Of a DNA stretch of 64,000 bases, positions 1-12,702 are shown in pieces (position 1 is the stretch's first letter; each line of letters starts with the position of its first letter). This DNA comes from Dehalococcoidia bacterium (GTDB taxonomy: Bacteria > Chloroflexota > Dehalococcoidia > Lucifugimonadales > UBA3495). The notes under the pieces are model-generated. The model was not told where the DNA came from. It worked only from the letters and a program-made list of their open reading frames with translations, and made no database searches. The position numbers were made by a program, and so were the translations under genes. The stretch spans positions 5,967-69,966 of the forward strand of contig DPHC01000008.1 in NCBI GenBank assembly GCA_003523055.1, in the 5' to 3' direction.

Positions 1-257
1 TATTTATATACCCAGATTATTTTAACCAAAACATTATGCGTTGGGAACTTTATAATGCATGCTGGACCGTGAAGTCCAAATCAGAAATGATTAGCGCATT
101 GACCAATATATATAACAAAGCATCTGCAACTCCTTATGGAACCAATGAAATTAATCATTTCCTCACTCAAGAGATACACGGAGGTACTGAAAATGCTGAT
201 GTGTTGTCAAATTATGTTGAACACATCAGCAATGTAGCTATGGGACAGACCTATTAA
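1..257 (+). CDS. C-terminal fragment of an unknown protein, truncated by the window edge
   Basis: The frame of the 36..257 ORF has no stop back to position 3, so the gene probably starts upstream of the window. No recognisable motif. Confidence 0.4.
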   Translation, partial: FIYPDYFNQNIMRWELYNACWTVKSKSEMISALTNIYNKASATPYGTNEINHFLTQEIHGGTENADVLSNYVEHISNVAMGQTY

Positions 258-1960
258 TGATATATAGGCATCTACTAAACTTAACTTTAATCCATAAAAT
301 CAAGGTGGGCAAATTAGTCATATTGAATTTCCTAATACCTCCGTTAGAGTTGTCTTTATTAGGATTAGTATTTCTCATACTCACCGCTTCTAAAGTGCCC
401 GAAATACCGGAGTTTTTCAATGACTATATCAGCATAGTACCTACCCTCATCCAGTACATCTTAATCCTAGCTATTCTAACTTTTGCATTAGTTTTGTTTT
501 GGGCTTTTCTCAGAATATATAGAACAAGAATTCAAGCTTTCACTAGATATAATATATATAGTGAACAAGCCAATCAAATAAGTGAAACATATTTCAACAT
601 ACCTGGAGATGCTGAATTATCTGAAAAGAATGAGGAAATCGCTAATTTAATCATACATCTGTCTGGCGGAGCATCAGCTCTGTATATGGCATGGATTGGA
701 TTTCTATCGGCAGTTTTCGGAGTGATTGTATTAGCAACCACTGTGTTACTCAGTTCATTCACCTTAGGAATCATTGCATCAATAATCGGACTGTTTTCAG
801 TTTTCATAAATTTTAAAAACTTTTCTCAAATGCAAAGCATCGGACAAACTAAAATAGCTACTCATGAACAAGTTTTGTTCGAAGTTAACCAAAATATTAG
901 AAGTTTCCAATTAATTAAATTCGACAACCTAATATCCCACATCACGAATAAATTAAAACTTGTCATTCAAAAAGATTGGCAATGGAGAGTTGATAAACGC
1001 CGAGCAGTTGAAAAAATTAAAGTATTATCTGATAGCTTTGGAATATTGTCTCTCCTAATTATAATAACCACTTCATCAATTTTTTTAAAAATACCTGCAG
1101 AACAATTAGTTATACTTCTCCTAATATTCAATCGATTAAGAAGCTATTTTTCTGAAGCACAAACTCACTGGGTCAATATCAGAGAACATAAACCAGCCAC
1201 CATTGAATTACTCAGCAGTCTGTCTAGATTTGTGAAATATTCAACTATAGACAATGCTGCAATCAGTAATCTTCATAGAATAGAGTTAAAGAATGTAGGT
1301 TTTTCATATTCGGATACTCCGATAATAAAGAGTGTTTCTGCCTTGATAACCAAAGGAGATAGAATACTACTTAAAGGACCTTCAGGAGAAGGTAAATCCA
1401 CACTTTTAAAATTAATTACAGGCTACTACCAGCCAACCACGGGGCAAATAATATTCAACAATTTACAAAAACAAAAACCTGATATTCAATCTATAGTGGG
1501 AGGAATTTTTTATTCAGCGAATGACATGTATATGCCAAACATACCACTGCGTGAAATAGTAGACCCCTTAAACATTCTAACTCAAAACCAGCTAGAAAAA
1601 ATATTAAAAAATGTATGCTTATACGACTTATTAAATGAACCAAAGATATTAAATGAATCTGTAGGTGATAATGGCAGCTACTTATCACTCGGGCAACGTC
1701 AACGTTTATTCCTTTCCAGAATATATCTAATGGAACCTTCTATGGTCATTTTAGATGAAGCTACTTCCAATCTTGATTCAGACACTGAAAACGAAGTACT
1801 GAAAAATCTAATGGATCATGTCGGTGAAGAAGCCATTATAATTTTTGCATCCCATCATACGCCATCACATTTTACTTTCAATAAAGCATTCACAGTATCT
1901 TCTGGAACAGTAATTCAAGAAAAAATTACCTCAAAAAAGGAATCATTCATTGATATATAA
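257..1960 (+). CDS. Fused ABC exporter (N-terminal multi-TM permease plus C-terminal ATPase)
   Basis: Hydrophobic N-terminal half. Walker A GPSGEGKST, ABC signature LSLGQRQR, Walker B ILDEATSNLD, H-loop ASHH. The ATG overlaps the upstream stop (TAATG). Confidence 0.85.
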   Translation: MIYRHLLNLTLIHKIKVGKLVILNFLIPPLELSLLGLVFLILTASKVPEIPEFFNDYISIVPTLIQYILILAILTFALVLFWAFLRIYRTRIQAFTRYNIYSEQANQISETYFNIPGDAELSEKNEEIANLIIHLSGGASALYMAWIGFLSAVFGVIVLATTVLLSSFTLGIIASIIGLFSVFINFKNFSQMQSIGQTKIATHEQVLFEVNQNIRSFQLIKFDNLISHITNKLKLVIQKDWQWRVDKRRAVEKIKVLSDSFGILSLLIIITTSSIFLKIPAEQLVILLLIFNRLRSYFSEAQTHWVNIREHKPATIELLSSLSRFVKYSTIDNAAISNLHRIELKNVGFSYSDTPIIKSVSALITKGDRILLKGPSGEGKSTLLKLITGYYQPTTGQIIFNNLQKQKPDIQSIVGGIFYSANDMYMPNIPLREIVDPLNILTQNQLEKILKNVCLYDLLNEPKILNESVGDNGSYLSLGQRQRLFLSRIYLMEPSMVILDEATSNLDSDTENEVLKNLMDHVGEEAIIIFASHHTPSHFTFNKAFTVSSGTVIQEKITSKKESFIDI

Positions 1961-2726
1961 ACGAGTTATAAATAAATTACGTAAAATAGCTTCGCCGACT
2001 CCTAATGTACCTACATCACTCAACCATTTACATGGTTTACAATCCGCTGTCGACTACGCAAATTCACAATCAGAATCGTCTGGCACTTCGTACTCAGATT
2101 ATTTGATTCTATATACGCACATTAAAGAGACTAAACCAAAGTACGTATTAGAATGTGGAACAGGAAAATCAACTTTCGTTATTGCACAAGCAATGTTAGA
2201 AAACCAATTAGAAAATCCGAACACACCTGAGTTTGATAAAATGAAATTAATATCAATGGAAGATAAATATGAATGGTACGAAAAATCCGTTAATATACTC
2301 CCAGAAAAGTTTCAAGAATTCGTTGAAATCCATCACTCAGAACTAACGTCTTATAGTTATTCATTATTAAACGGGATAATTTACAAAGATATACCCGACC
2401 TGCCTTACGATTTTGTCTTTATAGATGGACCTGACCAAAGTGGTGGGACAAATGTAACAGCATGTGACATAGATTTCATAAAAATTGTTAAAAACTCTAA
2501 TAATCCAGTAAGTGCTCTAATTGATAATCGGAAGCATACTATTTTGGCCTGCACTTTAGCATTTGGGCAAGACAAAGTCTCTTTTTATCCGGAGCTGGCT
2601 CTAGGCTATGTGAAGCCAGTTACTCAATCTGACTTGATAATAGCCGATAAAATGGCAATTCGAGCAACTTGGTTTAAAAACGGGCTTATTTCTTTAGAGA
2701 AAGGGAAACACATAAATTATTTATGA
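1950..2726 (+). CDS. Putative class I SAM-dependent methyltransferase
   Basis: VLECGTGKSTF glycine-rich SAM-binding-like motif and FVFIDGPDQ acidic strand. TTG start overlaps the ABC gene end, and the start is uncertain. Confidence 0.5.
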   Translation: MIYKRVINKLRKIASPTPNVPTSLNHLHGLQSAVDYANSQSESSGTSYSDYLILYTHIKETKPKYVLECGTGKSTFVIAQAMLENQLENPNTPEFDKMKLISMEDKYEWYEKSVNILPEKFQEFVEIHHSELTSYSYSLLNGIIYKDIPDLPYDFVFIDGPDQSGGTNVTACDIDFIKIVKNSNNPVSALIDNRKHTILACTLAFGQDKVSFYPELALGYVKPVTQSDLIIADKMAIRATWFKNGLISLEKGKHINYL

Positions 2727-3892
2727 CTTCTTCAGAAAATCCTCAATTTTTATTTTTGGTCGGTGCTCCCAGATCGGCTAACAGTGCGGTACATGCGCTA
2801 TTAGATAGTCATCCAGGCATACTTACATGGCCAGTAGAATGCCACTTTTTTACCGTTTTCAAACAAGTAGCAGGTGAATCCAAAACCGCACCTGTAAAAG
2901 AACTAAATAAAAGATTTATAGAGCATTTTGTTGATAGATTTCGTGAGAGATTAAGCCTCAATACTGTGCAACTCAAAGACAATGTATTTCAAATTTCAAA
3001 CATGTTTTCAGGTTTTGACATTCCGAAATTTATAAAAGAATTGGAATCAAATGCTAGTGACCAAATGACTGCATTAGAATATCTTACTTTTGTATTTTCT
3101 TCCTTTCATCAATGCAGTAATCAATATAAAAATACAAAAGTAAGATATTATTCAATGTTATTGACTTCACGCGGATTCGATTGGACCAATCCTGATGTAC
3201 TTAAACATTCTCGGCTAATATTTCCATACAGACCGTCTATAGAAAGTTATGGTTCATTAAGGGAAAACTATTTAAAGACGATTACTCCTAATGAATTTTT
3301 CCACATCAATGCGAAAAAGGGAATGTTGTATTGGATGAACACATATAAAAAAATATCTGACCATGCAAACAAATATAATAATCATTCAAATTTCCACGTT
3401 CTCAAAGTGTCAGATCTACGGACAAATCAAGAAAAAACAGTAAACAAATTATACGAATTCTTAAATATCAAACAACATAACTCTATGAACACCATGACCA
3501 TTTTAGGATTACCGTATGGAGGCAACGCTAGGGATGCTTCTCTAAATACTGGCCGCATTGCAAAAAAACCCAGCACCCTTCTATATCCTATATCAAGATT
3601 TGAACGACATTGCTTCCAAAAAATCAAATTGCACGATTTCGATAACGATCAAACAATATTCATTCCTCACTCAACATTAAGAATGGTATCATTAGCTATT
3701 TACTCAAGCCTATGGGAAATAAAGGGGAAATTCAAAGAAAATCATTACAATACTCCCTCTCGTTTAAAATTTATACACTGGAGGATTAAACTTTTAATTA
3801 AATTCCTTAAAATACAAAACATTCTACAAAATGAAGATACTCTAAAGTCATTCTCTGATAAACATGGTGATCCCATGGATTCTTTCGGGTAA
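2723..3892 (+). CDS. Sulfotransferase-fold protein (PAPS-type nucleotide-binding motifs, atypical)
   Basis: N-terminal FLVGAPRSANSAVHALLDSHPGI resembles the 5'-phosphosulfate-binding loop GxxRSGTT. A later YRPSIESYGS resembles the 3'-phosphate-binding RxPxxxxS motif. ATGA overlap with the upstream gene. Confidence 0.6.
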   Translation: MTSSENPQFLFLVGAPRSANSAVHALLDSHPGILTWPVECHFFTVFKQVAGESKTAPVKELNKRFIEHFVDRFRERLSLNTVQLKDNVFQISNMFSGFDIPKFIKELESNASDQMTALEYLTFVFSSFHQCSNQYKNTKVRYYSMLLTSRGFDWTNPDVLKHSRLIFPYRPSIESYGSLRENYLKTITPNEFFHINAKKGMLYWMNTYKKISDHANKYNNHSNFHVLKVSDLRTNQEKTVNKLYEFLNIKQHNSMNTMTILGLPYGGNARDASLNTGRIAKKPSTLLYPISRFERHCFQKIKLHDFDNDQTIFIPHSTLRMVSLAIYSSLWEIKGKFKENHYNTPSRLKFIHWRIKLLIKFLKIQNILQNEDTLKSFSDKHGDPMDSFG

Positions 3893-3901
3893 CCCAAATT
3901 G

Positions 3902-6900
3902 ATGGCAGCAAACATTAAAAATAATGTTAGTTTAGTTGTGTTAGATTGCTCCAGAGGAAATCGACGCTTAGATCAAAGACAAAGTCACCCTACAGCTTTA
4001 ACCCATATAAAAGATGAATCGACAATTTTAGATTGGACTAAACATTTTATTAATGTAAATGGTATTCATCATGTCACTTACATTGGTGGATACCAAATTC
4101 AGAAAGTAATGGAAAACTATTCTGACTTCCATTTTATATACCATAAATTTTGGGAAAGCACGGGGGAAATACGTGGATTGGATCTACTGCCAGAAGACGA
4201 TGACAAAGACTTAATCATTTTAAGAGCATCAAGCATTATAGTACCTGAAGCATTAACAGCATTAACAATTGAGACCAACAAAATATGTATTGGTAACAAT
4301 ACCGATTTAGAGACTGGGGACAATTTCAGCGGAGTACTTTACATCCCGCAAACATTGCGCAATGCATTTCAAAAACAAATCACAAAAATATCTTCAAAAG
4401 GTTCTTCATATAATTTAGAGGATTTATTACACACCTTACCTGAAACGCTACCTTGTTACACTAAATCGTTAAACTCACTAGTCGCTCCCATTGACAGCCC
4501 AATTGATCTAAGCAGAACCATTTTCCAAGGCAAAGCACAAACTTTAGAACAGGTAGGTCCTTTATTGAAGTCCTCGTCTGTTCTAAAACAATATAGGTTT
4601 TCTCACAAAACATGGATCGACCATCCCCAAAAAGTGATCTTAAATATTTTAACCGATTTCCCTGGAAAATCAGTGATCATACGAAGTACTTCCCAATCTG
4701 AAGATACGTTGATGAATTCGAATGCTGGTATATTCAAAACTGTTTTGAACATACCATCTGATAACAGTTTGTTACTCAAGAACGCCATAGAAGAAGTATT
4801 CGCCAGTTATGCTATAACTGATTTGATCAAGCCATCCGATGAGATATTTATACAGGAATTCCAAAGCAATTTATCTTCTAGTGGTGTTATTTTTACTAGA
4901 GATTTAGAATCCTCTGCTCCCTATATTCTAATAAATATAGATAGAACAAGCGGGAAATCTGACACAGTTACCGCTGGCACTGCTGGTGAAATAGAAACAA
5001 TTTTTATCAGTAAAAATAAACTTCATACTCAAACAGATTTTCAGGATTTAGAAATCAATGCCTGTGTGGCATTGATTTCAGAGCTAGAATACCTCACTAA
5101 CATGACAGATTTAGATATCGAATTCGGAATAGATATCAACAATACGATGTACTTGTTCCAAGTGCGTCCAATTTCAACCAAGGCAAGAAAATATATATTA
5201 CAAGACTCAGATCTATTTGACCAAATTGCGAATATTCAAGAGTTCATCAATGCCTTACCCATAATAAATCATGAAACTTTGGGCAAACACGCTCTTTTAG
5301 GAGCAATGACTGATTGGAATCCCATTGAAATGCTTGGAGCCACTCCAAGACCGCTTGCGTTATCTCTTTACCAAAAACTAATAGGGCGGCAAGCCTGGTC
5401 CATGGCGCGAGAACAATTAGGGTATCAAAAAGTAGGCAAAAACCAACTAATACATTCATTAGGCGGAATACCATATGTAAACATCCAATTGAGCCTCAAT
5501 TCATTCTTACCAAATGGAATCGACCGCGATACTGGAGAAAAATGGATTAACCATTGTTTAGACAAACTTCAAAAAAACCCGGAACTCCATGACAAAGTAG
5601 AATTTGAGATAACTCCTACCTGTATGGACCTAAATTTCGACAAGTATCTGGAGGAGCTTAATAGCCTTAATTTAACCAAATTACAAATTTCTAATTTCAA
5701 AATCTCAATGCAAAATTTGACTAATAATATACTTACTGAAAAAGTAATAAACTTAAACGAAGAATTATCAGCCCTAAAAGTATTAGAGCACAAATTGGAA
5801 CCTTGGGGTACCTTACATCCCCACACCATACCTGAATTAAGCGCTAAGATTACACATCTAACTACAATATGCGAAGAAATGGGTGTTTTACCTTTTGCCA
5901 AACTCGCAAGATGTGCATTCATATCAATATCAATGCTGAAGTCTTTGGTAGAACTGAAAATTATAACCGATGCAGAACTATCTGAAATCTACAAAAATAT
6001 ACCAACTATTGCTACTGACTTAACAGTTCACATGGGCCTCTACCAATCCGGAAAATTAACATTACAACAATTTCTAAAACAATACGGCCACTTAAGACCA
6101 AGCTCTTATGATATAACTTCTCCCAATTATGCAAATGGGCATGAGCAATATTTTAAAACAGGATCAGTTCCCCAATTAGAACAAAAATCCAATAGTGCTG
6201 AAGAATGCAGTGCGATATTAAGTAGTCATTCAAAAAAAATAGACGAACGTTTATTAGAGTCAGGCCTAACCATAAATACTGATACGCTAATCAAATTCAT
6301 AATAAAAAGTATACAAGGTAGAGAACAAGCTAAGTTTGAATTCATGAAAATTGTGGACAACATTCTCGAGTCTACAACTAAATTGGGACATCTCTTAGAT
6401 CTAGACAGGGACCAAATGTCGTTTTTAAACATCGAAGAATTAGAAAGACTTTCTTCAGAAAGCGCGAGTCCTGCAATAAAATCAGAATTATTAAGAATAA
6501 CAGAACATAATGAAAAAAAATGGAACCTTACTTGCCATACTAAATTGCCTCATTTAATAACTCCTAAAACGGATATTGGGTATTTTGAATACTCAAAGAC
6601 AGCTCCAAATTTTATATCCAATTCACGTATCATATCTAATTCTCTTTATTTAGAAAATAATCAAGTTGAATCTCAGCTGTCCGGAAAAATAATTCTAATC
6701 TCATCTGCTGACCCCGGATATGACTGGATATTCGGTCATGGTATAACAGGTTTAATCACAGAATATGGTGGTGCAGCATCTCACATGTCAATTAGGGCCG
6801 CAGAATTTGGAATACCAGCAGCAATCGGATGCGGTAAATTGTTATTTGACAAATTAAAAAACCAATCAGTTATTGAATTAGATTGCCTAAATAAAGTACT

Positions 6901-6919
6901 CCGAGGAATTTCATGTTAA
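3902..6919 (+). CDS. PEP-utilising-enzyme family protein (ATP-grasp plus swivelling phosphohistidine domain). L-glutamine kinase (Cj1418)-like, with an extra N-terminal domain
   Basis: C-terminal mobile-domain motif LITEYGGAASHMSIRAAEFGIPAAIGCG (catalytic His). Central PPDK_N/ATP-grasp-like region. No PEP/pyruvate TIM-barrel is apparent. About 200 aa of N-terminal nucleotidyltransferase-like extension. A TTG at 3899 is an alternative start. Confidence 0.7.
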   Translation: MAANIKNNVSLVVLDCSRGNRRLDQRQSHPTALTHIKDESTILDWTKHFINVNGIHHVTYIGGYQIQKVMENYSDFHFIYHKFWESTGEIRGLDLLPEDDDKDLIILRASSIIVPEALTALTIETNKICIGNNTDLETGDNFSGVLYIPQTLRNAFQKQITKISSKGSSYNLEDLLHTLPETLPCYTKSLNSLVAPIDSPIDLSRTIFQGKAQTLEQVGPLLKSSSVLKQYRFSHKTWIDHPQKVILNILTDFPGKSVIIRSTSQSEDTLMNSNAGIFKTVLNIPSDNSLLLKNAIEEVFASYAITDLIKPSDEIFIQEFQSNLSSSGVIFTRDLESSAPYILINIDRTSGKSDTVTAGTAGEIETIFISKNKLHTQTDFQDLEINACVALISELEYLTNMTDLDIEFGIDINNTMYLFQVRPISTKARKYILQDSDLFDQIANIQEFINALPIINHETLGKHALLGAMTDWNPIEMLGATPRPLALSLYQKLIGRQAWSMAREQLGYQKVGKNQLIHSLGGIPYVNIQLSLNSFLPNGIDRDTGEKWINHCLDKLQKNPELHDKVEFEITPTCMDLNFDKYLEELNSLNLTKLQISNFKISMQNLTNNILTEKVINLNEELSALKVLEHKLEPWGTLHPHTIPELSAKITHLTTICEEMGVLPFAKLARCAFISISMLKSLVELKIITDAELSEIYKNIPTIATDLTVHMGLYQSGKLTLQQFLKQYGHLRPSSYDITSPNYANGHEQYFKTGSVPQLEQKSNSAEECSAILSSHSKKIDERLLESGLTINTDTLIKFIIKSIQGREQAKFEFMKIVDNILESTTKLGHLLDLDRDQMSFLNIEELERLSSESASPAIKSELLRITEHNEKKWNLTCHTKLPHLITPKTDIGYFEYSKTAPNFISNSRIISNSLYLENNQVESQLSGKIILISSADPGYDWIFGHGITGLITEYGGAASHMSIRAAEFGIPAAIGCGKLLFDKLKNQSVIELDCLNKVLRGISC

Positions 6920-7578
6920 TAGCCGTTTCGATGCGCGTAACTGAAAATAATACGTACGTTGAACAACGTGATAGCCTTAGCCACGACTGGGCTCAACTAT
7001 TTAATGCGATATCAGTGACACCAATACTAATACCTAATTTAATTGAGGATCCTACAAAATATTTAAAAGATCTTCCAATATCTGGATTAATACTAACCGG
7101 AGGAGAATCCGTAATAGAGAATGACACTTCAACCCCAATCACTGCGTATAAAAAACGAGATGACACAGAACTTAACCTTTTAAGTTATGCAAGTGAAAAT
7201 AAAATACCGGTTTTGGGTACTTGCAGAGGCCTTCAATTAATAAACAGATTTTTTAATGGTAAAAATAGTTCAAGAATAAACCAAACCCATAGTCACAAAG
7301 TAGCATGCAATCATGATATAACAATTCTGACTAATTCAATTATTCCTGATATGTCTAAGCAAATAATTTCTGTAAACTCTTACCACGAAGACGGTGTTTT
7401 AATAGAAGAAATAAGTTCAGAGCTTAGAGCGTTTGCAACTTGGAATAACGAAACAGTGGAAGGAATATATCATCCCGAATTACCCATTTTGGCCATACAA
7501 TGGCATCCTGAAAGAAATCCTGAAATAACTTCATTAGACGAGAAAATAATCAATCACTGGGTCGAATTATGCAACTGA
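6913..7578 (+). CDS. Class I glutamine-amidotransferase-like / peptidase C26 hydrolase (Cj1417-like gamma-glutamyl-CDP-amidate hydrolase candidate)
   Basis: Nucleophile elbow PVLGTCRGLQLIN and a His in IQWHPER. Size about 220 aa. Position between the kinase-like and nucleotidyltransferase genes. Confidence 0.7.
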   Translation: MLIAVSMRVTENNTYVEQRDSLSHDWAQLFNAISVTPILIPNLIEDPTKYLKDLPISGLILTGGESVIENDTSTPITAYKKRDDTELNLLSYASENKIPVLGTCRGLQLINRFFNGKNSSRINQTHSHKVACNHDITILTNSIIPDMSKQIISVNSYHEDGVLIEEISSELRAFATWNNETVEGIYHPELPILAIQWHPERNPEITSLDEKIINHWVELCN

Positions 7579-8309
7579 TAATATTAGCTGCAGGCATGGG
7601 GTCCAGACTTAAACCCATAACAGATAATGTCCCTAAGGGATTAGTACAAGTTAACGGCAAATCAATACTAGAGTGGCAGGTTGATATAGCCCGACAGTTG
7701 GATATAACCGACATATGCATCGTAACTGGATATAAATCTGAATGCATTGACATACCTGAAACAACTACGATTCATAACCCTCAGTACAATACCACAAACA
7801 TGACACATTCTTTATTTTGTGCTCAAGAGTATTTTAAAGATGAATTCGTATTATCATATGGAGACATTATTTATTCTAAAAAAATTATGGAGAAATTATT
7901 AGATTCAAATGCACCAATATCCATAGTTGTTGATGACAATTGGAGATCATATTGGGAGGACAGATTCGATAATCCACTAGATGACGCAGAAAGTTTAACA
8001 ATAGCTAACAACCATATAACATCTATAGGGCAAAAACCAACTAGTTTAAACGATATAGAATCACAATATATAGGATTAATGTCTTTTAAGAACACAGGAG
8101 TGGCCTCATTAGTAGACTCTCATTCCGAGGTTCGCAGACATAATCCTTCTATTGCTCAACACATGTACATGACCGACTTACTACAATATATGATAAACAA
8201 AGAAATAAATCTCACTCCAGTCCATATTTCTAGTGGTTGGATTGAAATTGATTCATTAAAAGACCTTGAATTAGCTAAAATCTTGTTACCTAAAATAATT
8301 TTGTCATGA
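7569..8309 (+). CDS. Sugar/phospho-ligand nucleotidyltransferase (Cj1416-like CTP:phosphoglutamine cytidylyltransferase candidate)
   Basis: N-terminal LIILAAGMGSRLKPITDNVPKGLVQVNGKSIL is the canonical NTP-transferase signature. About 246 aa. Confidence 0.7.
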   Translation: MQLIILAAGMGSRLKPITDNVPKGLVQVNGKSILEWQVDIARQLDITDICIVTGYKSECIDIPETTTIHNPQYNTTNMTHSLFCAQEYFKDEFVLSYGDIIYSKKIMEKLLDSNAPISIVVDDNWRSYWEDRFDNPLDDAESLTIANNHITSIGQKPTSLNDIESQYIGLMSFKNTGVASLVDSHSEVRRHNPSIAQHMYMTDLLQYMINKEINLTPVHISSGWIEIDSLKDLELAKILLPKIILS

Positions 8310-9109
8310 AAAAAGTTTACAGATCTGAATCCAATATTGATTATTGGAATAGAAGATGGAGTGAATCAGGAACAGATGCTAAGGCATTCTTAGATCCTAA
8401 CATATACCCTGTAAAATACTCTAATTTAATAGTACAGGATAAAACCGAATGTTGTTTAGAAATTGGATCTGGGGTCGGAAGAATATTAAAGCATTACTTC
8501 TATCAAGGATTTAACATAACAGGAATTGAGAGAAGCAACATCGGTGTAGATACTATGCTAGCATCCGATAAAAATTTACCAGTTCAAATAGGTGATGCTG
8601 TAAATTTGCCATACGCAGATTCTACATTCGATAATGTGCTAGCATTTGGAGTCTTTCATAACATTGAAGATGAAGTGGCTCTAAAAAATAGTATTTCTCA
8701 ATGCAGTAGGGTATTAAAGCCGTCCGGAAGGTTTTGTATTTCCATCAGACCTGACAACTTAGAAATGAACTTAAATGAATGGTATTGGAAAATTTCTGGC
8801 TATAAAAAACAAAATCATGGAAATGACTCTACTACTTTTCATAGATGGTTGTTCAAAAAAAATGAATTTCAGCGAATCCTATCTAACAACAATTTACACA
8901 CAGTTAAAGTGCATGCAGCTCGCAATGTATCCATACTCTACCGGATAAAATGGCTTAGAACACAAAATAAAGACGAAACCTATCTGCGTTCTAATGGATA
9001 TAAGTTGAATTTCTTAGGAGCATCAATCGATAGATTGATAACCTTCATAATGCCTAACCAATTTTGCAATGTGTTTGTTTTCATAGGAGAGAAGCGACCC
9101 CAATGGTGA
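8306..9109 (+). CDS. Class I SAM-dependent methyltransferase
   Basis: CLEIGSGVGRIL motif I, acidic IERS, and DNVLAFGVFHNIED, a Methyltransf_11-like core. ATGA overlap upstream. Confidence 0.75.
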   Translation: MKKVYRSESNIDYWNRRWSESGTDAKAFLDPNIYPVKYSNLIVQDKTECCLEIGSGVGRILKHYFYQGFNITGIERSNIGVDTMLASDKNLPVQIGDAVNLPYADSTFDNVLAFGVFHNIEDEVALKNSISQCSRVLKPSGRFCISIRPDNLEMNLNEWYWKISGYKKQNHGNDSTTFHRWLFKKNEFQRILSNNNLHTVKVHAARNVSILYRIKWLRTQNKDETYLRSNGYKLNFLGASIDRLITFIMPNQFCNVFVFIGEKRPQW

Positions 9110-9621
9110 TCTGGATTATTGGGATGCCCGGAGCTGGCAAAACAGCAGTTGGTGCACTACTGTACAAACAAATATCATCTGACTACAAAAATACAGTTTT
9201 TATAGATGGTGATGATATACGCAATATCATGCTAAATGACTTAGGGCATACTATAGAAGACCGTAAAATAAATGCTACCAGAATTCGTAATCTCTGTAAG
9301 CATTTAGACAAGCAAAATATAAATATCGTGTGCTCTATAATGTCTATATTCCAAGAAGATCGGGATTGGAATCGCGAAAATTATGAATCATATTACGAAG
9401 TATTCTTAAACACTCCTTTGGAAATTTTAATTACCCGAGACCAAAAAGGTCTGTACTCGAAAGCTTATGACAATCAAATTAAAGATGTTGTCGGAATAGA
9501 TATACCTTTTAATCCACCTACTAATCCTGACTTGATTATAAACAATGACCCTAAAATTATAAATTTACAACAAATAACTGAAACGATTTATGACGCTATA
9601 CAAAAACAATTATCAAAATGA
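9103..9621 (+). CDS. Adenylylsulfate (APS) kinase-family kinase (Cj1415-like cytidine diphosphoramidate 3'-kinase candidate)
   Basis: P-loop IIGMPGAGKTAVG, then FIDGDDIRN, DRKINATRIRNL and RDQKGLYSKA, which follow the CysC pattern. The ATG at 9103 overlaps the upstream stop (ATGGTGA). The ORF track starts earlier, at 9064. Confidence 0.75.
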   Translation: MVIWIIGMPGAGKTAVGALLYKQISSDYKNTVFIDGDDIRNIMLNDLGHTIEDRKINATRIRNLCKHLDKQNINIVCSIMSIFQEDRDWNRENYESYYEVFLNTPLEILITRDQKGLYSKAYDNQIKDVVGIDIPFNPPTNPDLIINNDPKIINLQQITETIYDAIQKQLSK

Positions 9622-10232
9622 TTATGTACGTTTATACACTTACTAACATACTAAAAAAGAGACAAGACTACATGTACACTCCCTGGCATGGGAAAGATTT
9701 CATAACCGAGTACATTTCGAACAGGAAGCACGCATTGTCAAAGCTAGAAGACAATTATACGACCGCAGTAAGTGAATACGAATTAATCAAAGATATAGAA
9801 TCAACATTACAAATTCAATCAAGTCAAAAAACTCAAAATATAAACACTACCGCTATGTTGCTGGCATTAATTAACAATAATCTAGAACTCACAGATCATG
9901 CATCCGCATTATTTAAAATAGAATCTTTGCTAAAATCATTCGAAGTCAGAAAAAAGATTTACACTAAATACAATGAACTGTTTAAACCTTTGTCTAAAGA
10001 ATTCTCAAATTTAGAAAATTATATATTATTTTGTATAGTGTTACTAAAACAATTCACATTAACTAACGAATACAGGTATCTAAACACTATACTAAAGCTC
10101 AATGATCTGATTATATCAACAGGACTTGAGTCAGTAACAAAAACTAACAAGGCATTAATATCATTACTATTAACAAGAGAATTATCTTGTATACAGAAAC
10201 TTCTACAAGAAAGATCCATACAAGATGAATAA
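9618..10232 (+). CDS. Hypothetical protein
   Basis: 204-aa ORF, translationally coupled at both ends (ATGA overlaps). No recognisable motif. Confidence 0.5.
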   Translation: MIMYVYTLTNILKKRQDYMYTPWHGKDFITEYISNRKHALSKLEDNYTTAVSEYELIKDIESTLQIQSSQKTQNINTTAMLLALINNNLELTDHASALFKIESLLKSFEVRKKIYTKYNELFKPLSKEFSNLENYILFCIVLLKQFTLTNEYRYLNTILKLNDLIISTGLESVTKTNKALISLLLTRELSCIQKLLQERSIQDE

Positions 10233-10935
10233 GATTAATATCGGGTTATTAGGAGTGGATTCAATACGAACCAGAGCGTATATATCTGTGTTAACAAAAT
10301 TAAATATTACTCTAGAAGAAGCAATCATATTAAGTGGAGGGAAAAGCCATACACCTGAAGTAATCGAAAAAAGTTCTTATTTCAATAATCAAATTCACTC
10401 CATAAAAATGCTTCAAGCTTTAGGAACTCCTATAAATATATTAGAAACTTCAGACATAAATGATACAACAGTAGTTACAGCTTTAAATCATTCACGCCCT
10501 AAGTTATTTATATACTCAGGAAGTGGTGGTTCAATTATTAAAAATAATATTCTATCAACCCAAAAACAATTCCTACACATACATCCAGGCATATTGCCTG
10601 AATACCGCGGTAGCACAACTATTTACTATAGTCTTTTAAAAGAAAACAAATGTGGTGCCTCGGGTATAATTCTAGATGAAAATATAGATACTGGACCAGT
10701 AATTGCTAGCAAAGAATTCCCACCACCAGATAACAGAAAGTCTATAGATTATGAATATGATCCTTATGTAAGATCTGCATTATTATCAGACATATTGACT
10801 TATTATCTACATAACGGAAGGCTACCTGAAAAAATCAACCAAAACAGAGAAGGTTTTAATTACTACATTATGCATCCACTGTTAAGACACATTACCATGC
10901 TTTCACAAAGTCACCCATCAAATAGCGGAGTATGA
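10225..10935 (+). CDS. Formyltransferase-fold protein (N-formyl/N-acyl transferase candidate)
   Basis: LHIHPGILPEYRGSTT and DENIDTGPVI match the HxSLLPxxRG ... DxGxI core of Fmt/PurN-type formyltransferases. Confidence 0.65.
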   Translation: MNKINIGLLGVDSIRTRAYISVLTKLNITLEEAIILSGGKSHTPEVIEKSSYFNNQIHSIKMLQALGTPINILETSDINDTTVVTALNHSRPKLFIYSGSGGSIIKNNILSTQKQFLHIHPGILPEYRGSTTIYYSLLKENKCGASGIILDENIDTGPVIASKEFPPPDNRKSIDYEYDPYVRSALLSDILTYYLHNGRLPEKINQNREGFNYYIMHPLLRHITMLSQSHPSNSGV

Positions 10936-10936
10936 T

Positions 10937-11977
10937 ATGAATACATTTTACATAGACAACAAATTGGTCGGAGGCAACCGCTGTTTCATCATAGCCGAAA
11001 TCGCTCAAGCACATGACGGCAGTTTAGGTACAGCCCACGCATACATAGATGCTGTAGCGAAATCTGGTGCAGATGCCATCAAATTCCAAACCCATATTGC
11101 TTCAGCTGAAAGCACTCCAGATGAACCTTTCAGAATAAATTTTAGCAAACAAGATGAAACAAGATATGACTACTGGAAAAGAATGGAATTCACAGAAAGT
11201 CAGTGGGTCGGGCTATATGAACATTGTAATGAAGTTGGCATTACTTTTCTAAGTTCCCCATTTTCAGAGGAAGCCGTTGAATTGTTAGATAGCATCAACA
11301 TGCAAGCTTGGAAAGTAGCATCTGGAGAAATTAGTAACATACCTATGTTAACCAAAATTGCTGAAACAGGAAAGCCAATATTAATATCAACAGGCATGAG
11401 TGATATTGATGAAATTCACGAAACTCTGAATTATTTAACCCCGTATGAGAGCCCTGTCCTGATATTTCAAACGACTACTGCTTATCCGTGTCCTCCTGAA
11501 AAAATAGGTATAAACAATGTTCAATTATATAGGGATTTGTTTAATCTCCCAGTTGGGTTATCTGACCACTCAGGAACTATTTTTTCAGGTCTAGCCGGAG
11601 CAGCTATTGGCATTAACATGCTGGAAATCCACATAACATTCTCCAAACACATGTTCGGCCCAGACGTAACTGCTTCTATAACAACCGATGAATTAACGAC
11701 GCTTGTCACAGGAATTAGATACATAGAATCAATGAAAAATAACCCCGTAGACAAGAATCTAATAGCAGCTGAATTAAAACCACTCAGAGAATTATTTGCG
11801 AAAAGCATAGTAGCAAAGTCCAATTTACTGGAAGGGCATATTATTACTCTTGCTGACGTTGCATATAAAAAACCTGGGAATGGGCTATCTCCAGATAGCA
11901 TATCGCAAATAATTGGTAAACCATTAAACAAACCTGTGAAGACAGATAAACCAATTTTACTAACTGACGTAAATTAA
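10937..11977 (+). CDS. neuB: NeuB-family nonulosonic acid synthase (N-acylneuraminate/legionaminate/pseudaminate synthase type) with C-terminal SAF domain
   Basis: CFIIAEIAQAHDGSLGTAHAYIDAVAKSGADAIKFQTH, SDHSG, and a C-terminal SAF-like segment. The sugar specificity cannot be told from the sequence alone. Confidence 0.85.
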   Translation: MNTFYIDNKLVGGNRCFIIAEIAQAHDGSLGTAHAYIDAVAKSGADAIKFQTHIASAESTPDEPFRINFSKQDETRYDYWKRMEFTESQWVGLYEHCNEVGITFLSSPFSEEAVELLDSINMQAWKVASGEISNIPMLTKIAETGKPILISTGMSDIDEIHETLNYLTPYESPVLIFQTTTAYPCPPEKIGINNVQLYRDLFNLPVGLSDHSGTIFSGLAGAAIGINMLEIHITFSKHMFGPDVTASITTDELTTLVTGIRYIESMKNNPVDKNLIAAELKPLRELFAKSIVAKSNLLEGHIITLADVAYKKPGNGLSPDSISQIIGKPLNKPVKTDKPILLTDVN

Positions 11978-11991
11978 TTAGATATTTAAAA

Positions 11992-12702
11992 ATGAAAGAA
12001 TTAACAACATTAGCAATCATACCTGCTAGAGGAGGATCTAAATCCATACCCAAAAAAAACATTGTCGACTTACATGGTATACCTTTGATAGCACACAGTA
12101 TAAATACTGCGAAACAAACCTCATTAATAGATAAAACAATAGTAAGCACAGATTCGGAAGAAATCAAAGACATAAGTTTACAATTCGGTGCAGAAGTACC
12201 TTTTCTCCGGCCAGAAGACATTGCTCAAGACCACACACCTGACCTACCAGTATTTATACATTGCTTAAAATGGTTAGCCCAAAACCAAGATTATGTTCCA
12301 GATTTCGTGATTCATTTACGACCTACTACTCCATTTAGAGACATTTCCGTGATAGAAGATTGTATTAATCTCATGAAAAAAAACCTTAACGCAGATTCTT
12401 TAAGAGTTGTGACAATGTCCAAAGAACATCCATACAAGATGTGGACTTTCCAACCCTGTTCACTATACTTGAAACCATTATTAGATTCAGATATAGATGA
12501 ACCTTACAATCAACCCAGGCAAGCCCTTCCTACAACTTTCTTCCAACCCGGATATATAGACGTAATTAGGACCAATACAATACTACAAAAAAACTCCATG
12601 TCTGGTGACAATATTCTAGGGCATGTGCTTAAAGACAGCACAATTGTAGATATAGATGACCAATTAAGTTTAGATTTTTCCAGATTTTTATCTCATGAAT
12701 AA
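11992..12702 (+). CDS. neuA: Acylneuraminate (CMP-nonulosonate) cytidylyltransferase
   Basis: AIIPARGGSKSIPKKNI signature, about 236 aa, directly downstream of neuB. Confidence 0.85.
   Translation: MKELTTLAIIPARGGSKSIPKKNIVDLHGIPLIAHSINTAKQTSLIDKTIVSTDSEEIKDISLQFGAEVPFLRPEDIAQDHTPDLPVFIHCLKWLAQNQDYVPDFVIHLRPTTPFRDISVIEDCINLMKKNLNADSLRVVTMSKEHPYKMWTFQPCSLYLKPLLDSDIDEPYNQPRQALPTTFFQPGYIDVIRTNTILQKNSMSGDNILGHVLKDSTIVDIDDQLSLDFSRFLSHE

What the first reader, a model, noticed from the sequence alone, without database searches (positions are those of the whole stretch)
1950..9621. Complete O-methyl-phosphoramidate (MeOPN)-like cofactor pathway in a non-Campylobacter, AT-rich genome
Five consecutive, translationally coupled genes match the Campylobacter jejuni MeOPN pathway as I recall it from the Raushel-lab work:
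- a PEP-utilising/ATP-grasp enzyme with a phosphohistidine domain but no TIM barrel (Cj1418, L-glutamine kinase);
- a class-I GATase-like Cys-His hydrolase (Cj1417, gamma-glutamyl-CDP-amidate hydrolase);
- an NTP-transferase (Cj1416, CTP:phosphoglutamine cytidylyltransferase);
- a SAM methyltransferase (Cj1419/Cj1420 type);
- an APS-kinase homolog (Cj1415, cytidine diphosphoramidate 3'-kinase).
The order kinase-hydrolase-cytidylyltransferase-...-CysC-like is the same as Cj1418-1417-1416-1415. A second methyltransferase lies upstream, as in C. jejuni.
This would make a PAPS-like 3'-phospho-CDP-amidate donor and place a phosphoramidate (N-P bond) on this organism's surface glycan. That modification is essentially known only from Campylobacter capsules.
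Basis: partly seen in the sequence, partly recalled or inferred. Interest (0 to 1): 0.85.

Follow-up and report, generated by a model that had tools for sequence, protein, structure and literature searches.

The report
Phosphoramidate-donor operon in a marine Chloroflexota
A marine, Chloroflexota-like bacterium carries a full set of genes resembling the Campylobacter pathway that makes a nitrogen-phosphorus (phosphoramidate) decoration for surface sugars; such gene sets turn out to be common across bacteria and archaea, and here the operon also holds a sulfotransferase-like enzyme that may attach the group.

Summary
Window 1950-10935 is one overlapping plus-strand operon. It encodes a glutamine-kinase-type enzyme with no TIM barrel (NCBIfam PRK05849, 799 bits against a cut-off of 501), a Cys-His-Glu amidohydrolase whose best family is gamma-glutamyl-CDP-amidate hydrolase, a LicC-like nucleotidyltransferase, two SAM methyltransferases and an APS-kinase homologue.

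The kinase homologue is not a normal CysC. Both Phe residues that stack the APS adenine are replaced. Its relatives sit next to glutamine-kinase genes, and in five genomes they are fused to them. The window has no ATP sulfurylase.

So the Campylobacter MeOPN (mpnA-D) reading is supported. I could not compare directly with C. jejuni sequences.

The rarity argument is overstated at gene level: at least 598 species genomes, bacterial and archaeal, encode a glutamine-kinase relative, and 72-75 of 80 loci examined keep the three-gene core.

- A sulfotransferase-fold gene (2723-3892). Its 42%-identical orthologue in a syntenic locus sits beside ATP sulfurylase and APS kinase instead of this cassette.
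- A conserved module of an unknown protein plus a formyltransferase-like protein.
- A degenerate nucleotidyltransferase-like N-terminal domain on the kinase.

I propose, as inference only, that the sulfotransferase-like protein transfers the phosphoramidate.

The parts
257..1960 (+). ABC exporter (permease plus ATPase; PglK/MsbA-like). First conserved gene of the operon; probable flippase or exporter of the lipid-linked glycan.
   Evidence: Pfam ABC_tran 8.9e-23. NCBIfam PglK-type model 1.3e-34, below its cut-off. Conserved upstream of the cassette in L084-L086, L089 and L090.
1950..2726 (+). Methyltransferase 1 (class I SAM-dependent fold; weak assignment).
   Evidence: Methyltransf_24 5e-05, 24.6 bits, just under the cut-off of 26.3. 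Orthologues occur only in the window's marine relatives and in L048, always next to the cassette.
2723..3892 (+). Candidate phosphoramidate transferase that would use the 3'-phosphorylated donor (inference).
   Evidence: Pfam Sulfotransfer_3 2.9e-09, 37.9 bits (cut-off 27). The motifs PRS[GA] (R17, S18), W36-P37-x-E39 and R170-x7-S178 are conserved across 22 family members. The AF2 model is poor (pLDDT 58.5), yet its top 15 PDB matches are all PAPS-dependent sulfotransferases. The 42%-identical orthologue in L092-L094 sits with ATP sulfurylase and APS kinase instead of the GlnK cassette.
3902..6919 (+). L-glutamine-kinase-type enzyme (Cj1418/MpnA-like), 1005 aa; an alternative TTG start lies at 3899. 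Four parts: a degenerate nucleotidyltransferase-like N-terminal domain (aa 1-200), an ATP-grasp domain, a helical middle region, and a phosphohistidine swivel domain (aa about 929-996; His961 in the motif GGAASHM).
   Evidence: NCBIfam PRK05849 3.4e-240, 799 bits vs cut-off 501, on residues 204-1002. PPDK_N and PEP-utilizers are the only Pfam domains. H961 is invariant in 24 homologues. N-terminal domain vs the Cj1416-type family: hhalign probability 99.5%, E 2.6e-23.
6913..7578 (+). Class I glutamine-amidotransferase-like hydrolase (Cj1417/MpnB-like; gamma-glutamyl-CDP-amidate hydrolase type) with Cys104-His198-Glu200.
   Evidence: Peptidase_C26 2.3e-29. Top NCBIfam family NF045546, 1.8e-31, matched end to end, but 110 bits < cut-off 250. 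Triad kept in 98-100% of 77 homologues. Follows GlnK in 72/80 loci.
7569..8309 (+). Nucleotidyltransferase (Cj1416/MpnC-like; CTP:phosphoglutamine cytidylyltransferase type) with G9-x-G11-x-R13 and K23.
   Evidence: NTP_transf_3 6.6e-14. Best PDB relative LicC 1jyk, 4.9e-17. Signature residues kept in 98-100% of 78 homologues. Present in 75/80 loci.
8306..9109 (+). Methyltransferase 2 (Methyltransf_11 type). Candidate O-methyltransferase for the phosphoramidate.
   Evidence: Methyltransf_11 1.2e-15. Methyltransf_11-type genes occur in 19/39 loci that have the APS-kinase homologue and in 0/41 without it. Fused in frame to a sulfotransferase domain in L065.
9103..9621 (+). APS-kinase homologue (Cj1415/MpnD-like; cytidine diphosphoramidate 3'-kinase type), 172 aa; an alternative TTG start lies at 9064.
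   Evidence: APS_kinase 5e-37. NCBIfam PRK05541 168 bits > 127, while apsK TIGR00455 at 133.7 is < 138.7. The window has LGH/SIF/VVG where solved APS kinases have LGF/SPY/[FL]TG. Homologues are fused to GlnK in L041, L066, L073, L077 and L078.
9618..10232 (+). Unknown 204-aa helical protein ('U204'). Conserved between the kinase homologue and the formyltransferase-like gene.
   Evidence: No Pfam or NCBIfam hit. Detected by tblastn in 13 of the 80 loci, in most of them between the kinase homologue and the formyltransferase-like gene. The AF2 single-sequence model is unreliable (pLDDT 52).
10225..10935 (+). Formyltransferase-fold protein with an altered catalytic motif (H118-x-H120...D155 instead of N-x-H...D). 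Role unknown.
   Evidence: Formyl_trans_N 2.3e-09. Profile vs PDB: Met-tRNA and sugar N-formyltransferases, best 4.3e-11. Invariant residues. Present in 18/39 loci with the kinase homologue and 1/41 without.
10937..12702 (+). NeuB-type nonulosonic acid synthase (10937-11977) and CMP-sugar cytidylyltransferase (11992-12702). Start of the glycan-building part of the locus; likely acceptor context.
   Evidence: NeuB 9.2e-64 and CTP_transf_3 4.5e-21. Conserved directly after the cassette in L084-L086, L089 and L090, and directly after the sulfotransferase-like gene in L092-L094.

Best explanation
Window 257-12702 is the front end of a roughly 48-kb surface-glycan locus of an uncultured marine, Chloroflexota-like bacterium. 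Genes 3902-9621 encode an MpnA-D-type pathway.

Inferred by homology to the C. jejuni enzymes:
1. The glutamine kinase uses ATP and a phospho-His961 intermediate to phosphorylate the amide N of L-glutamine.
2. The nucleotidyltransferase joins this to CMP, giving CDP-L-glutamine.
3. The Cys-His-Glu hydrolase releases glutamate, leaving cytidine diphosphoramidate.
4. The APS-kinase homologue phosphorylates the 3'-OH, giving a PAPS-like donor, 3'-phospho-CDP-amidate.

Inferred from comparative genomics only:
5. The sulfotransferase-fold protein (2723-3892) transfers the phosphoramidate to a hydroxyl of a nonulosonic-acid-containing glycan and releases 3'-phospho-CMP.
6. One of the two SAM methyltransferases O-methylates it.

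The conserved U204/formyltransferase-like pair modifies the donor or the product in an unknown way. The ABC exporter moves the finished lipid-linked glycan out.

My confidence is about 0.8 for steps 1-4, about 0.4 for step 5 and about 0.5 for step 6.
For: Family and residue evidence for steps 1-4:
- PRK05849 is above its cut-off, and the kinase has no TIM barrel.
- NF045546 is the hydrolase's top family.
- The catalytic Cys/His/Glu and G-x-G-x-R/K residues are conserved.
- Protein sizes match C. jejuni MpnD/C/B (170/253/200 aa in PMC7901785; 172/246/221 aa here).

Synteny:
- The order GlnK-Hyd-NT is kept in 72-75 of 80 species loci from many phyla.
- The whole operon is kept at 45-55% identity in marine relatives.

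The kinase homologue is specialised:
- Both APS adenine-stacking Phe residues are replaced (role of the Phe pair in PMC4373884).
- It is fused to GlnK in five genomes.
- No Sat/CysDN is present in the window.

Step 5:
- The sulfotransferase fold and its motifs for the 5'-phosphosulfate and 3'-phosphate sites are kept.
- Sulfotransferase-family genes lie inside or beside the cassette in Anaerolineales, Nomurabacteria, Planctomycetota, Magnetococcales, Chlamydiales, Bryobacterales, Geobacter, Bacteroidetes and Azospirillum.
- They are enriched where the kinase homologue is present (13/39 vs 4/41).
- In L092-L094 the orthologue sits with Sat and APS kinase and has no GlnK cassette. This looks like a swap of donor cassettes.

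Step 6:
- Methyltransf_11 genes occur in 19/39 loci with the kinase homologue and 0/41 without.
- L065 carries a sulfotransferase-methyltransferase fusion.
Against: - No direct comparison with Cj1415-Cj1422 sequences was possible.
- The hydrolase scores below the curated equivalog cut-off (110 vs 250 bits).
- The nucleotidyltransferase has no specific family model, and its nearest solved relative acts on phosphocholine.
- The sulfotransferase-like protein could be a true PAPS enzyme. Its orthologue in L092-L094 almost certainly is one, and I found no residue that separates the two contexts.
- The association statistics treat loci as independent, which they are not. Four loci have a sulfotransferase-like gene without the kinase homologue, and seven have the kinase homologue with a TagF-like gene.
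- C. jejuni MeOPN transferases are 609-642 aa (PMC7901785). I do not know their fold, and I found no protein of that kind here.
- The role of U204 and the formyltransferase-like protein is unexplained, so the final group may differ from MeOPN.
- There is no chemical evidence for phosphoramidate in any Chloroflexota glycan.
Confidence: 0.7

Rival explanations
1. The operon combines two unrelated decorations. The sulfotransferase-like protein is an ordinary PAPS-dependent sulfotransferase supplied by sulfate-activation genes elsewhere in the genome. The phosphoramidate donor made by the cassette is used by a different, unrecognised transferase, possibly U204 plus the formyltransferase-like protein.
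For: - The 42%-identical orthologue in L092-L094 lies in the same operon position next to ATP sulfurylase and APS kinase, so that one is most simply a sulfotransferase.
- The donor-binding motifs are the standard sulfotransferase ones.
- No context-specific residue difference was found.
- The formyltransferase-like gene is linked to the kinase homologue even more tightly than the sulfotransferase-like genes are (18/39 vs 1/41).
Against: - No sulfurylase or canonical APS kinase is present in the 64-kb window.
- Sulfotransferase-family genes recur inside kinase-homologue-bearing cassettes in at least 10 phyla without local sulfate activation, L046 excepted.
- Sulfotransferase-like and TagF-like genes almost never co-occur (1 of 80 loci), as expected of alternative transferases for one pathway.
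- A formyltransferase fold has no known phosphoryl-transfer chemistry (my knowledge).
Confidence: 0.3
2. The three-gene core makes a CDP-activated compound other than cytidine diphosphoramidate, for example a CDP-amino-acid or a CDP-phospho-alcohol head group. The resemblance to the MeOPN pathway would then be only at superfamily level.
For: - The hydrolase is below the curated equivalog cut-off.
- PGAP names homologues only 'PEP-utilizing enzyme', 'gamma-glutamyl-GABA hydrolase family' and 'phosphocholine cytidylyltransferase family'.
- Half of the loci lack the kinase homologue and pair the core with TagF-like transferases. This shows the core serves more than one downstream route.
Against: - The kinase passes a full-length equivalog model.
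- The hydrolase's best family by about 50 bits is the Cj1417 family.
- The trio of kinase without TIM barrel, GATase-like hydrolase and nucleotidyltransferase is the specific combination characterised in C. jejuni, and it has the same order here (PMC11800397 for the assignments).
- JGI annotation of homologues is 'glutamine kinase'.
Confidence: 0.1
3. The 9103-9621 protein is a genuine CysC (APS kinase) that makes PAPS for the neighbouring sulfotransferase.
For: - Strong APS_kinase Pfam hit (5e-37).
- Its best PDB matches are APS kinases.
- A sulfotransferase-family gene lies 5 kb upstream.
Against: - It has His and Val at the two positions where APS kinases stack the adenine between Phe residues, and S-I-F instead of S-P-Y. 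It shares these changes with about 35 cassette-linked homologues (PMC4373884).
- It is just below the apsK equivalog cut-off (133.7 vs 138.7).
- Homologues are fused to the glutamine kinase in five genomes.
- There is no ATP sulfurylase in the window.
Confidence: 0.05

Closest known systems
Campylobacter jejuni MeOPN cofactor pathway: Cj1418/MpnA glutamine kinase, Cj1417/MpnB hydrolase, Cj1416/MpnC cytidylyltransferase, Cj1415/MpnD CDP-amidate 3'-kinase, with methyltransferases Cj1419/1420
   Same: - Same four enzyme families in the same transcriptional order.
- Similar sizes for three of them (170/253/200 aa vs 172/246/221 aa; PMC7901785).
- Two roughly 255-aa methyltransferases nearby.
- Embedded in a surface-polysaccharide locus.
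- The kinase has ATP-grasp and phosphohistidine domains and no TIM barrel.
   Different: - The kinase is 1005 aa rather than 779 aa, with an extra degenerate nucleotidyltransferase-like N-terminal domain.
- A methyltransferase is inserted between the transferase and kinase genes.
- The operon also carries U204, a formyltransferase-like protein and a sulfotransferase-fold protein.
- No 600-aa Cj1421/1422-like candidate was recognised.
- The host is a marine Chloroflexota-like organism, and the glycan is built around nonulosonic acids rather than a Kps-type capsule.
- Sequence identity to the C. jejuni proteins was not measured.
PAPS system: ATP sulfurylase + APS kinase (CysC) + PAPS-dependent sulfotransferases (Sulfotransfer_3: TPST, CurM ST, Stf)
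   Same: - The kinase homologue shares the APS-kinase fold and P-loop.
- The 2723-3892 protein shares the sulfotransferase fold and the PRSG-type and R-x7-S motifs.
- The logic is the same: a 3'-phosphorylated nucleotide donor and a transferase that releases a 3',5'-bisphosphate nucleotide.
- In L092-L094 a real PAPS cassette occupies the place of the phosphoramidate cassette.
   Different: - The window has no sulfurylase.
- The adenine-stacking Phe pair of APS kinases is lost.
- The activated group would be phosphoramidate on a cytidine nucleotide rather than sulfate on adenosine.
TagF-like CDP-glycerol glycerophosphotransferases (PF04464) next to GlnK-Hyd-NT cores in other genomes
   Same: They are the commonest partner of the same three-gene core (25/41 loci without the kinase homologue). 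They would also transfer a phospho group from a CDP-linked donor.
   Different: None is present in the window. They go with loci that lack both the 3'-kinase and the methyltransferase, which suggests a second route that uses CDP-amidate directly.
MeOPN-like cluster reported in Borg extrachromosomal elements of Methanoperedens (bioRxiv 10.1101/2024.11.05.622173)
   Same: Homologues of Cj1416-1418 lie in a surface-glycan region outside Campylobacter.
   Different: That report rests on structure prediction, lists no 3'-kinase, and involves an archaeal element. Here the four-enzyme set plus methyltransferases is complete and bacterial.

Membership tests
L-glutamine kinase (Cj1418/MpnA; EC 2.7.3.13; NCBIfam PRK05849) | Full-length match to the family model above its curated cut-off | tested here: met
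   799.3 bits vs cut-off 501, E 3.4e-240, residues 204-1002 on model positions 6-786 of 789. I recall, but did not verify here, that this model represents Cj1418. The model length (789) fits MpnA at 779 aa (PMC7901785).
L-glutamine kinase (Cj1418/MpnA; EC 2.7.3.13; NCBIfam PRK05849) | ATP-grasp (PPDK_N-like) domain plus phosphohistidine swivel domain with the catalytic His, and no PEP/pyruvate-binding TIM barrel | tested here: met
   PPDK_N 6e-11 and PEP-utilizers 1.3e-12 are the only Pfam domains. The swivel domain ends at residue 996 of 1006. His961 in GGAASHM is invariant in 24 homologues.
L-glutamine kinase (Cj1418/MpnA; EC 2.7.3.13; NCBIfam PRK05849) | Reciprocal best hit to C. jejuni Cj1418, and glutamine N-phosphorylation activity | not testable with these tools
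   The single genome-collection scan returned no Campylobacter locus. The Raushel papers were not held. No PDB entry exists.
gamma-glutamyl-CDP-amidate hydrolase (Cj1417/MpnB; NCBIfam NF045546) | Score above the curated equivalog cut-off | tested here: not met
   109.8 bits vs cut-off 250. It is nevertheless the top family, aligned end to end (1-218 on 1-196 of 198) and about 50 bits ahead of GMP synthase subunit A. I therefore file it as a distant relative that probably works like Cj1417, not as a certified equivalog.
gamma-glutamyl-CDP-amidate hydrolase (Cj1417/MpnB; NCBIfam NF045546) | Class I GATase fold with a Cys-His-Glu triad, encoded next to the glutamine kinase | tested here: met
   Peptidase_C26 2.3e-29. 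C104 is kept in 100% and H198 and E200 in 98% of 77 homologues. It lies immediately after GlnK in 72/80 loci.
CTP:phosphoglutamine cytidylyltransferase (Cj1416/MpnC) | Nucleotidyltransferase fold with the G-x-G-x-R...K signature, encoded with the kinase and hydrolase | tested here: met
   NTP_transf_3 6.6e-14. G9, G11, R13 and K23 are kept in 98-100% of 78 homologues. Present in 75/80 loci.
CTP:phosphoglutamine cytidylyltransferase (Cj1416/MpnC) | A specific family model or direct similarity to Cj1416; CTP and phosphoglutamine specificity | not testable with these tools
   NCBIfam has no dedicated model; its best hit is a generic archaeal GlmU-type subfamily, below cut-off. The best PDB relative is LicC.
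Cytidine diphosphoramidate 3'-kinase (Cj1415/MpnD) | APS-kinase fold, but not a canonical APS kinase | tested here: met
   APS_kinase 5e-37. PRK05541 168 bits > 127, while apsK TIGR00455 at 133.7 is < 138.7. The Phe pair that sandwiches the APS adenine (PMC4373884) is His and Val here.
Cytidine diphosphoramidate 3'-kinase (Cj1415/MpnD) | Functional link to the glutamine-kinase pathway rather than to sulfate activation | tested here: met
   39 of 80 GlnK loci carry this type. Five genomes encode APS_kinase-PPDK_N-PEP-utilizers fusion proteins. No Sat/CysD/CysN is present in the window.
Cytidine diphosphoramidate 3'-kinase (Cj1415/MpnD) | Same clade as Cj1415; CDP-amidate preferred over APS | not testable with these tools
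PAPS-type sulfotransferase fold (Pfam Sulfotransfer_3) | Domain match above the gathering score, with the 5'-phosphosulfate-binding loop and the 3'-phosphate-binding R-x7-S motif | tested here: met
   37.9 bits vs cut-off 27. PRSANS aligns with PRSGTT of TPST1. R17, S18, R170 and S178 are invariant or nearly so in 22 members. The fold search returns only sulfotransferases among the top hits, although the model is poor. The meaning of the motifs comes from my knowledge of the sulfotransferase literature.
C. jejuni MeOPN transferases (Cj1421/Cj1422) | Homology to the 609-642-aa phase-variable transferases | not testable with these tools
Sizes are from PMC7901785. No unassigned protein of about 600 aa lies in the glycan locus, as every ORF of 100 aa or more was scanned.

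The most novel reading that the evidence does not exclude
Sulfotransferase-fold enzymes, such as the product of 2723-3892, are phosphoramidate transferases that use 3'-phospho-CDP-amidate exactly as sulfotransferases use PAPS. On this reading, the PAPS cassette (Sat + CysC) and the phosphoramidate cassette (GlnK-Hyd-NT-kinase) are interchangeable donor modules placed next to one transferase family. Methylated phosphoramidate glycans would then be widespread in bacteria and archaea, including abundant marine Chloroflexota. A second, kinase-free route would run through TagF-like enzymes.
Probability: 0.35. Interest if true: 0.8.

Novelty: new variant of a known kind. Interest (0 to 1): 0.58.

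Why it matters
Phosphoramidate (N-P) decoration of glycans is described chemically only in Campylobacter. A 2022 review still calls the glutamine kinase C. jejuni-specific (PMC9561416).

This window, and the hundreds of related loci it led to, suggest that the donor pathway is a widespread module of surface-glycan loci across bacteria and archaea. It comes in at least two architectures.

The window's version gathers every accessory gene in one operon: two methyltransferases, the 3'-kinase, a sulfotransferase-fold protein and a conserved unknown/formyltransferase-like pair.

That makes three open points directly testable with a handful of recombinant proteins:
- which enzyme fold uses the PAPS-like donor;
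- when methylation happens;
- what the extra module does.

It would also put an unusual, charge-altering modification, relevant to phage receptors, on the surface of a common marine lineage.

Tried and rejected
- **Direct comparison with C. jejuni proteins failed.** The primary Raushel papers were not held. No solved structure of Cj1415-1418 exists in the PDB copy.
- **Plasmid search.** It gave annotated homologues but only generic PGAP names.
- **Azospirillum fusion protein.** I guessed that the N-terminal 650 aa of the 846-aa Azospirillum kinase fusion was a sulfotransferase domain. Pfam did not support this, so I dropped it.
- **Fold of the MeOPN transferases.** I suspected the C. jejuni MeOPN transferases were TagF-like. 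The papers I could read list MeOPN transferases and CDP-glycerol glycerophosphotransferases as different genes, so their fold remains unknown to me.
- **Metagenome scan.** A 9-sequence alignment worked.
- **Structure prediction.** The sulfotransferase-like protein, with only 4 sequences, gave pLDDT 58.5, and I used it only as weak fold support. U204 without an alignment gave pLDDT 52 and was not searched further.
- **Donor-specific residues.** I looked for residues separating sulfotransferase orthologues in PAPS context from those in phosphoramidate context and found none convincing.
- **Other scans.** Promoter and terminator scans were at or below chance. No tRNA or Rfam family is present in the window.

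Full report
**What is in the sequence.** Window 257-12702 is an unbroken run of plus-strand genes whose ends overlap by 4-11 nt. Pfam and NCBIfam assign them as follows:

| Coordinates | Assignment |
|---|---|
| 257-1960 | ABC exporter |
| 1950-2726 | weak class I methyltransferase (MT1) |
| 2723-3892 | Sulfotransfer_3 protein (ST) |
| 3899/3902-6919 | 1005-aa protein with only PPDK_N and PEP-utilizers domains (GlnK) |
| 6913-7578 | Peptidase_C26/GATase protein (Hyd) |
| 7569-8309 | NTP_transf_3 protein (NT) |
| 8306-9109 | Methyltransf_11 protein (MT2) |
| 9064/9103-9621 | APS_kinase homologue (APSK-like) |
| 9618-10232 | 204-aa protein with no hit (U204) |
| 10225-10935 | Formyl_trans_N protein (FT) |
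| 10937-12702 | NeuB and a CMP-sugar cytidylyltransferase |

It missed ST, U204 and FT.

**The rest of the locus and the organism.**
- The locus runs to about 48 kb. It encodes a second NeuB and a second cytidylyltransferase, a radical-SAM/SPASM protein, an asparagine-synthase-like amidotransferase and a PIG-L deacetylase.
- It also encodes three UDP-GlcNAc 2-epimerases, several GT4/GT2 glycosyltransferases, a carbamoyltransferase and a polyprenyl glycosylphosphotransferase.
- It is therefore a lipid-linked surface-glycan locus built around nonulosonic acids.
- The 3' end of the window carries LigA, Pth, two GlnA genes, AmtB, QueC and QueF.
- The best named relatives of GlnA, at 77-80% identity, are marine Chloroflexi, Dehalococcoidia and SAR202 MAGs.
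- The same proteins occur in Tara, JGI and ENA marine assemblies and in NCBI MAG GCA_014240465.1.
- G+C is 32-38%.

**The four cofactor enzymes.**
- *GlnK.* It matches NCBIfam PRK05849 over residues 204-1002 with 799 bits (cut-off 501). It ends 10 residues after the swivel domain, so it has no TIM barrel. The phosphohistidine (His961, GGAASHM) is invariant in 24 homologues. JGI names several homologues 'glutamine kinase'.
- *Hyd.* Its best family is NF045546, gamma-glutamyl-CDP-amidate hydrolase, aligned end to end. The score of 110 bits is below the equivalog cut-off of 250. Cys104, His198 and Glu200 are kept in 98-100% of 77 homologues.
- *NT.* It has the G-x-G-x-R...K signature, kept in 98-100% of 78 homologues. 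Its closest solved relative is the CTP:phosphocholine cytidylyltransferase LicC.
- *APSK-like.* It passes the PRK05541 subfamily model but falls just short of the apsK equivalog.
- *Sizes.* They agree with C. jejuni MpnD/C/B (170/253/200 aa) and its two methyltransferases (253/257 aa). MpnA is 779 aa against 1005 aa here (tables in PMC7901785).
- *Assignments.* The functions of Cj1415-1418 are summarised in PMC11800397.

**Is the APS-kinase homologue a real CysC?** I aligned 42 homologues from GlnK loci with five solved APS kinases.
- True APS kinases read LGF, SPY and [FL]TG at three motifs. The window protein and about 35 cassette-linked homologues read LGH (or Y), S[IL]F and VVG.
- The two replaced Phe residues are the pair that sandwiches the APS adenine. 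That interaction is conserved across APS-kinase complexes (PMC4373884).
- In five genomes (a proteobacterium, Acidobacteriaceae, Gemmatimonadales, Bryobacterales, Chlamydiales) one ORF carries APS_kinase, PPDK_N and PEP-utilizers domains.
- No ATP sulfurylase, CysD or CysN is present anywhere in the window.

**Distribution.**
They span many bacterial phyla, Haloferax, DPANN archaea and Methanosarcinales.
- In the 80 best loci, NT is present in 75 and Hyd in 72, almost always in the order GlnK-Hyd-NT.
- Plasmids of Azospirillum, Vibrio, Cupriavidus and others also carry the core. PGAP gives them only generic names.
- A preprint had already noted Cj1416-1418 homologues in Borg elements (bioRxiv 10.1101/2024.11.05.622173).
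- The literature still describes the chemistry as Campylobacter-only (PMC6429109) and the kinase as C. jejuni-specific (PMC9561416).
- The finding is thus a real member of a large but almost unstudied family, not a unique transfer from Campylobacter.

**Two architectures.** I split the 80 loci by presence of the cassette-type kinase homologue, giving 39 with and 41 without. Partner genes sort sharply:

| Partner gene | With kinase homologue (39) | Without (41) | Fisher p |
|---|---|---|---|
| Methyltransf_11 methyltransferases | 19 | 0 | 6e-8 |
| FT | 18 | 1 | 2.5e-6 |
| Sulfotransferase-family genes | 13 | 4 | 0.014 |
| TagF-like CDP-glycerol glycerophosphotransferase genes (PF04464) | 7 | 25 | 1e-4 |

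- Sulfotransferase-like and TagF-like genes co-occur in only one locus.
- The p-values ignore phylogenetic non-independence and are only indicative.
- The window belongs to the class with kinase plus methyltransferase, as C. jejuni does. It has no TagF-like gene.

**The sulfotransferase-fold gene.**
- ST exceeds the Sulfotransfer_3 gathering score.
- Its family has 197 representatives at E ≤ 0.001 among 1.8 billion proteins.
- The family keeps PRS[GA], which aligns with PRSGTT of TPST1.
- A low-confidence model (pLDDT 58.5) still retrieves only PAPS-dependent sulfotransferases as its top 15 matches.
- The whole operon, including ST, is conserved at 45-55% identity in marine contigs.
- In other phyla, Pfam-confirmed sulfotransferase genes sit directly after FT (L009 Anaerolineales, L004 Nomurabacteria, L048 Planctomycetota) or next to it (L074).
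- Others sit beside APSK-GlnK fusions (L066, L041, L077) or beside the kinase homologue (L070).
- In L065 a sulfotransferase domain is fused in frame to a Methyltransf_11 domain.
- Azospirillum lipoferum plasmid AZO_p6 has two annotated sulfotransferase-domain genes in its cassette.

**The most telling comparison.** L092-L094 are syntenic marine loci with the order GT2 - APS kinase - ATP sulfurylase - ... - ABC - ST orthologue (42% identity) - NeuB - cytidylyltransferase - GFO - radical SAM. They have no GlnK cassette. The same transferase family in the same glycan locus is thus served either by a PAPS cassette or by the phosphoramidate cassette.
- This is what one expects if ST in the window uses the PAPS-like 3'-phospho-CDP-amidate.
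- It is also compatible with ST being a plain sulfotransferase fed from elsewhere.
- I found no residue that tells the two contexts apart.

**Other features.**
- The N-terminal 200 aa of GlnK is a diverged copy of the Cj1416-type nucleotidyltransferase fold (hhalign probability 99.5%, E 2.6e-23). Its signature is altered to S-R-G-x-R-R and it lacks the conserved Lys, so it is probably non-catalytic. Some homologues carry a recognisable PF12804 domain there.
- FT is a formyltransferase-fold protein. Its nearest solved relatives are Met-tRNA and sugar N-formyltransferases. The catalytic Asn is replaced by an invariant His (H118-x-H120...D155).
- Together with U204, FT forms an APSK-U204-FT module that recurs whether or not NeuB is present. 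I cannot assign it a role.

**Mechanism proposed.**
- Steps 1-4 follow the C. jejuni enzymology by homology: glutamine N-phosphorylation, cytidylylation, hydrolysis to CDP-amidate and 3'-phosphorylation. My confidence is about 0.8.
- Transfer by ST (about 0.4) and O-methylation by MT2 or MT1 (about 0.5) are inferences from gene association and fusions.
- The acceptor is probably a nonulosonic-acid-containing, polyprenyl-linked glycan exported by the ABC transporter.
- The end product may differ from MeOPN because of U204 and FT.

**Verdict.** The claimed rarity applies to the known chemistry, not to the genes. The window is best filed as a new variant of a known kind. It has the complete Mpn-type cofactor pathway in a marine Chloroflexota-like genome, an extended kinase, and accessory genes that yield a testable hypothesis for the transfer step.

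Noticed in passing
L092, L093, L094 (e.g. L093:4137-11143): These marine loci are syntenic with the window. In place of the GlnK cassette they carry an APS kinase, an ATP sulfurylase and a pyruvate-kinase-barrel protein. These lie upstream of the ABC exporter and of the 42%-identical sulfotransferase orthologue. This looks like a swap of donor cassettes.
   Followed up: yes
L041:9305-12355, L078:2992-5937, L073:9347-12313, L077:9377-12313, L066:2648-5587: Each is a single ORF that fuses an APS-kinase-like domain to the N-terminus of the glutamine-kinase core. The five come from five different phyla or orders.
   Followed up: yes
L065:13693-18030: A 1446-aa open frame in a Geobacter MAG, directly after the cassette. 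It has a Sulfotransfer_1 domain (aa 159-269) and a Methyltransf_11/25 domain (aa 411-596). The remaining roughly 850 aa are unassigned.
   Followed up: partly
window 15745-17208 and 17219-18682: Two tandem 487-aa paralogues with no Pfam hit. They match only weakly to the BFO_1060 glycosyltransferase and TIGR04396 surface-carbohydrate families. They may be nonulosonic-acid transferases.
   Followed up: partly
window 13712-14815: A radical-SAM/SPASM enzyme lies between the GFO-type oxidoreductase and the second NeuB. It is conserved in the related marine loci (L084-L086, L093). This is unusual within a nonulosonic-acid pathway.
   Followed up: no
window 10937-11977, 14827-15735, 11992-12702, 23080-23826: Two NeuB-type synthases and two CMP-sugar cytidylyltransferases, together with three UDP-GlcNAc 2-epimerases (21861-23066, 35903-37027, 45448-46581). 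The locus probably makes two different ulosonic acids.
   Followed up: no
window 38189-39940 and 41002-43158: A NodU/CmcH-type carbamoyltransferase, and a 718-aa fusion of a zinc-type alcohol dehydrogenase with a GFO/IDH/MocA oxidoreductase, both inside the glycan locus.
   Followed up: no
window 26250-27545: A Peptidase_M14 (zinc carboxypeptidase)-like protein lies between a Capsule_synth-like gene and a GT4 glycosyltransferase. Its start overlaps the preceding gene by 58 nt.
   Followed up: no
window 54721-56025 and 56166-57599, with 57721-58932: Two adjacent glutamine-synthetase paralogues. One is a canonical GlnA and the other a divergent copy just below the GlnA cut-off. An Amt ammonium transporter lies next to them, all on the minus strand.
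   Followed up: no
L082 (Vibrio alfacsensis plasmid NZ_CP140104.1, locus 4473-13051): cysD and cysN plus an SLC13 permease lie divergently next to GlnK-Hyd-NT and a TagF-like gene, with no 3'-kinase homologue. Sulfate activation and the phosphoramidate core are neighbours here too.
   Followed up: partly
L005:8184-9995, L019:6482-8227, L061:12098-14203: Large sulfatase/alkaline-phosphatase-superfamily proteins (PF00884, LtaS/EptA-like) recur next to GlnK cassettes of both architectures. They may be a further class of head-group transferases.
   Followed up: no
L083:4701-7241 (Azospirillum lipoferum 4B plasmid AZO_p6): An 846-aa protein annotated as adenylyl-sulfate kinase. Only the last roughly 150 aa are the cassette-type kinase domain. 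The first roughly 650 aa have no Pfam hit.
   Followed up: partly
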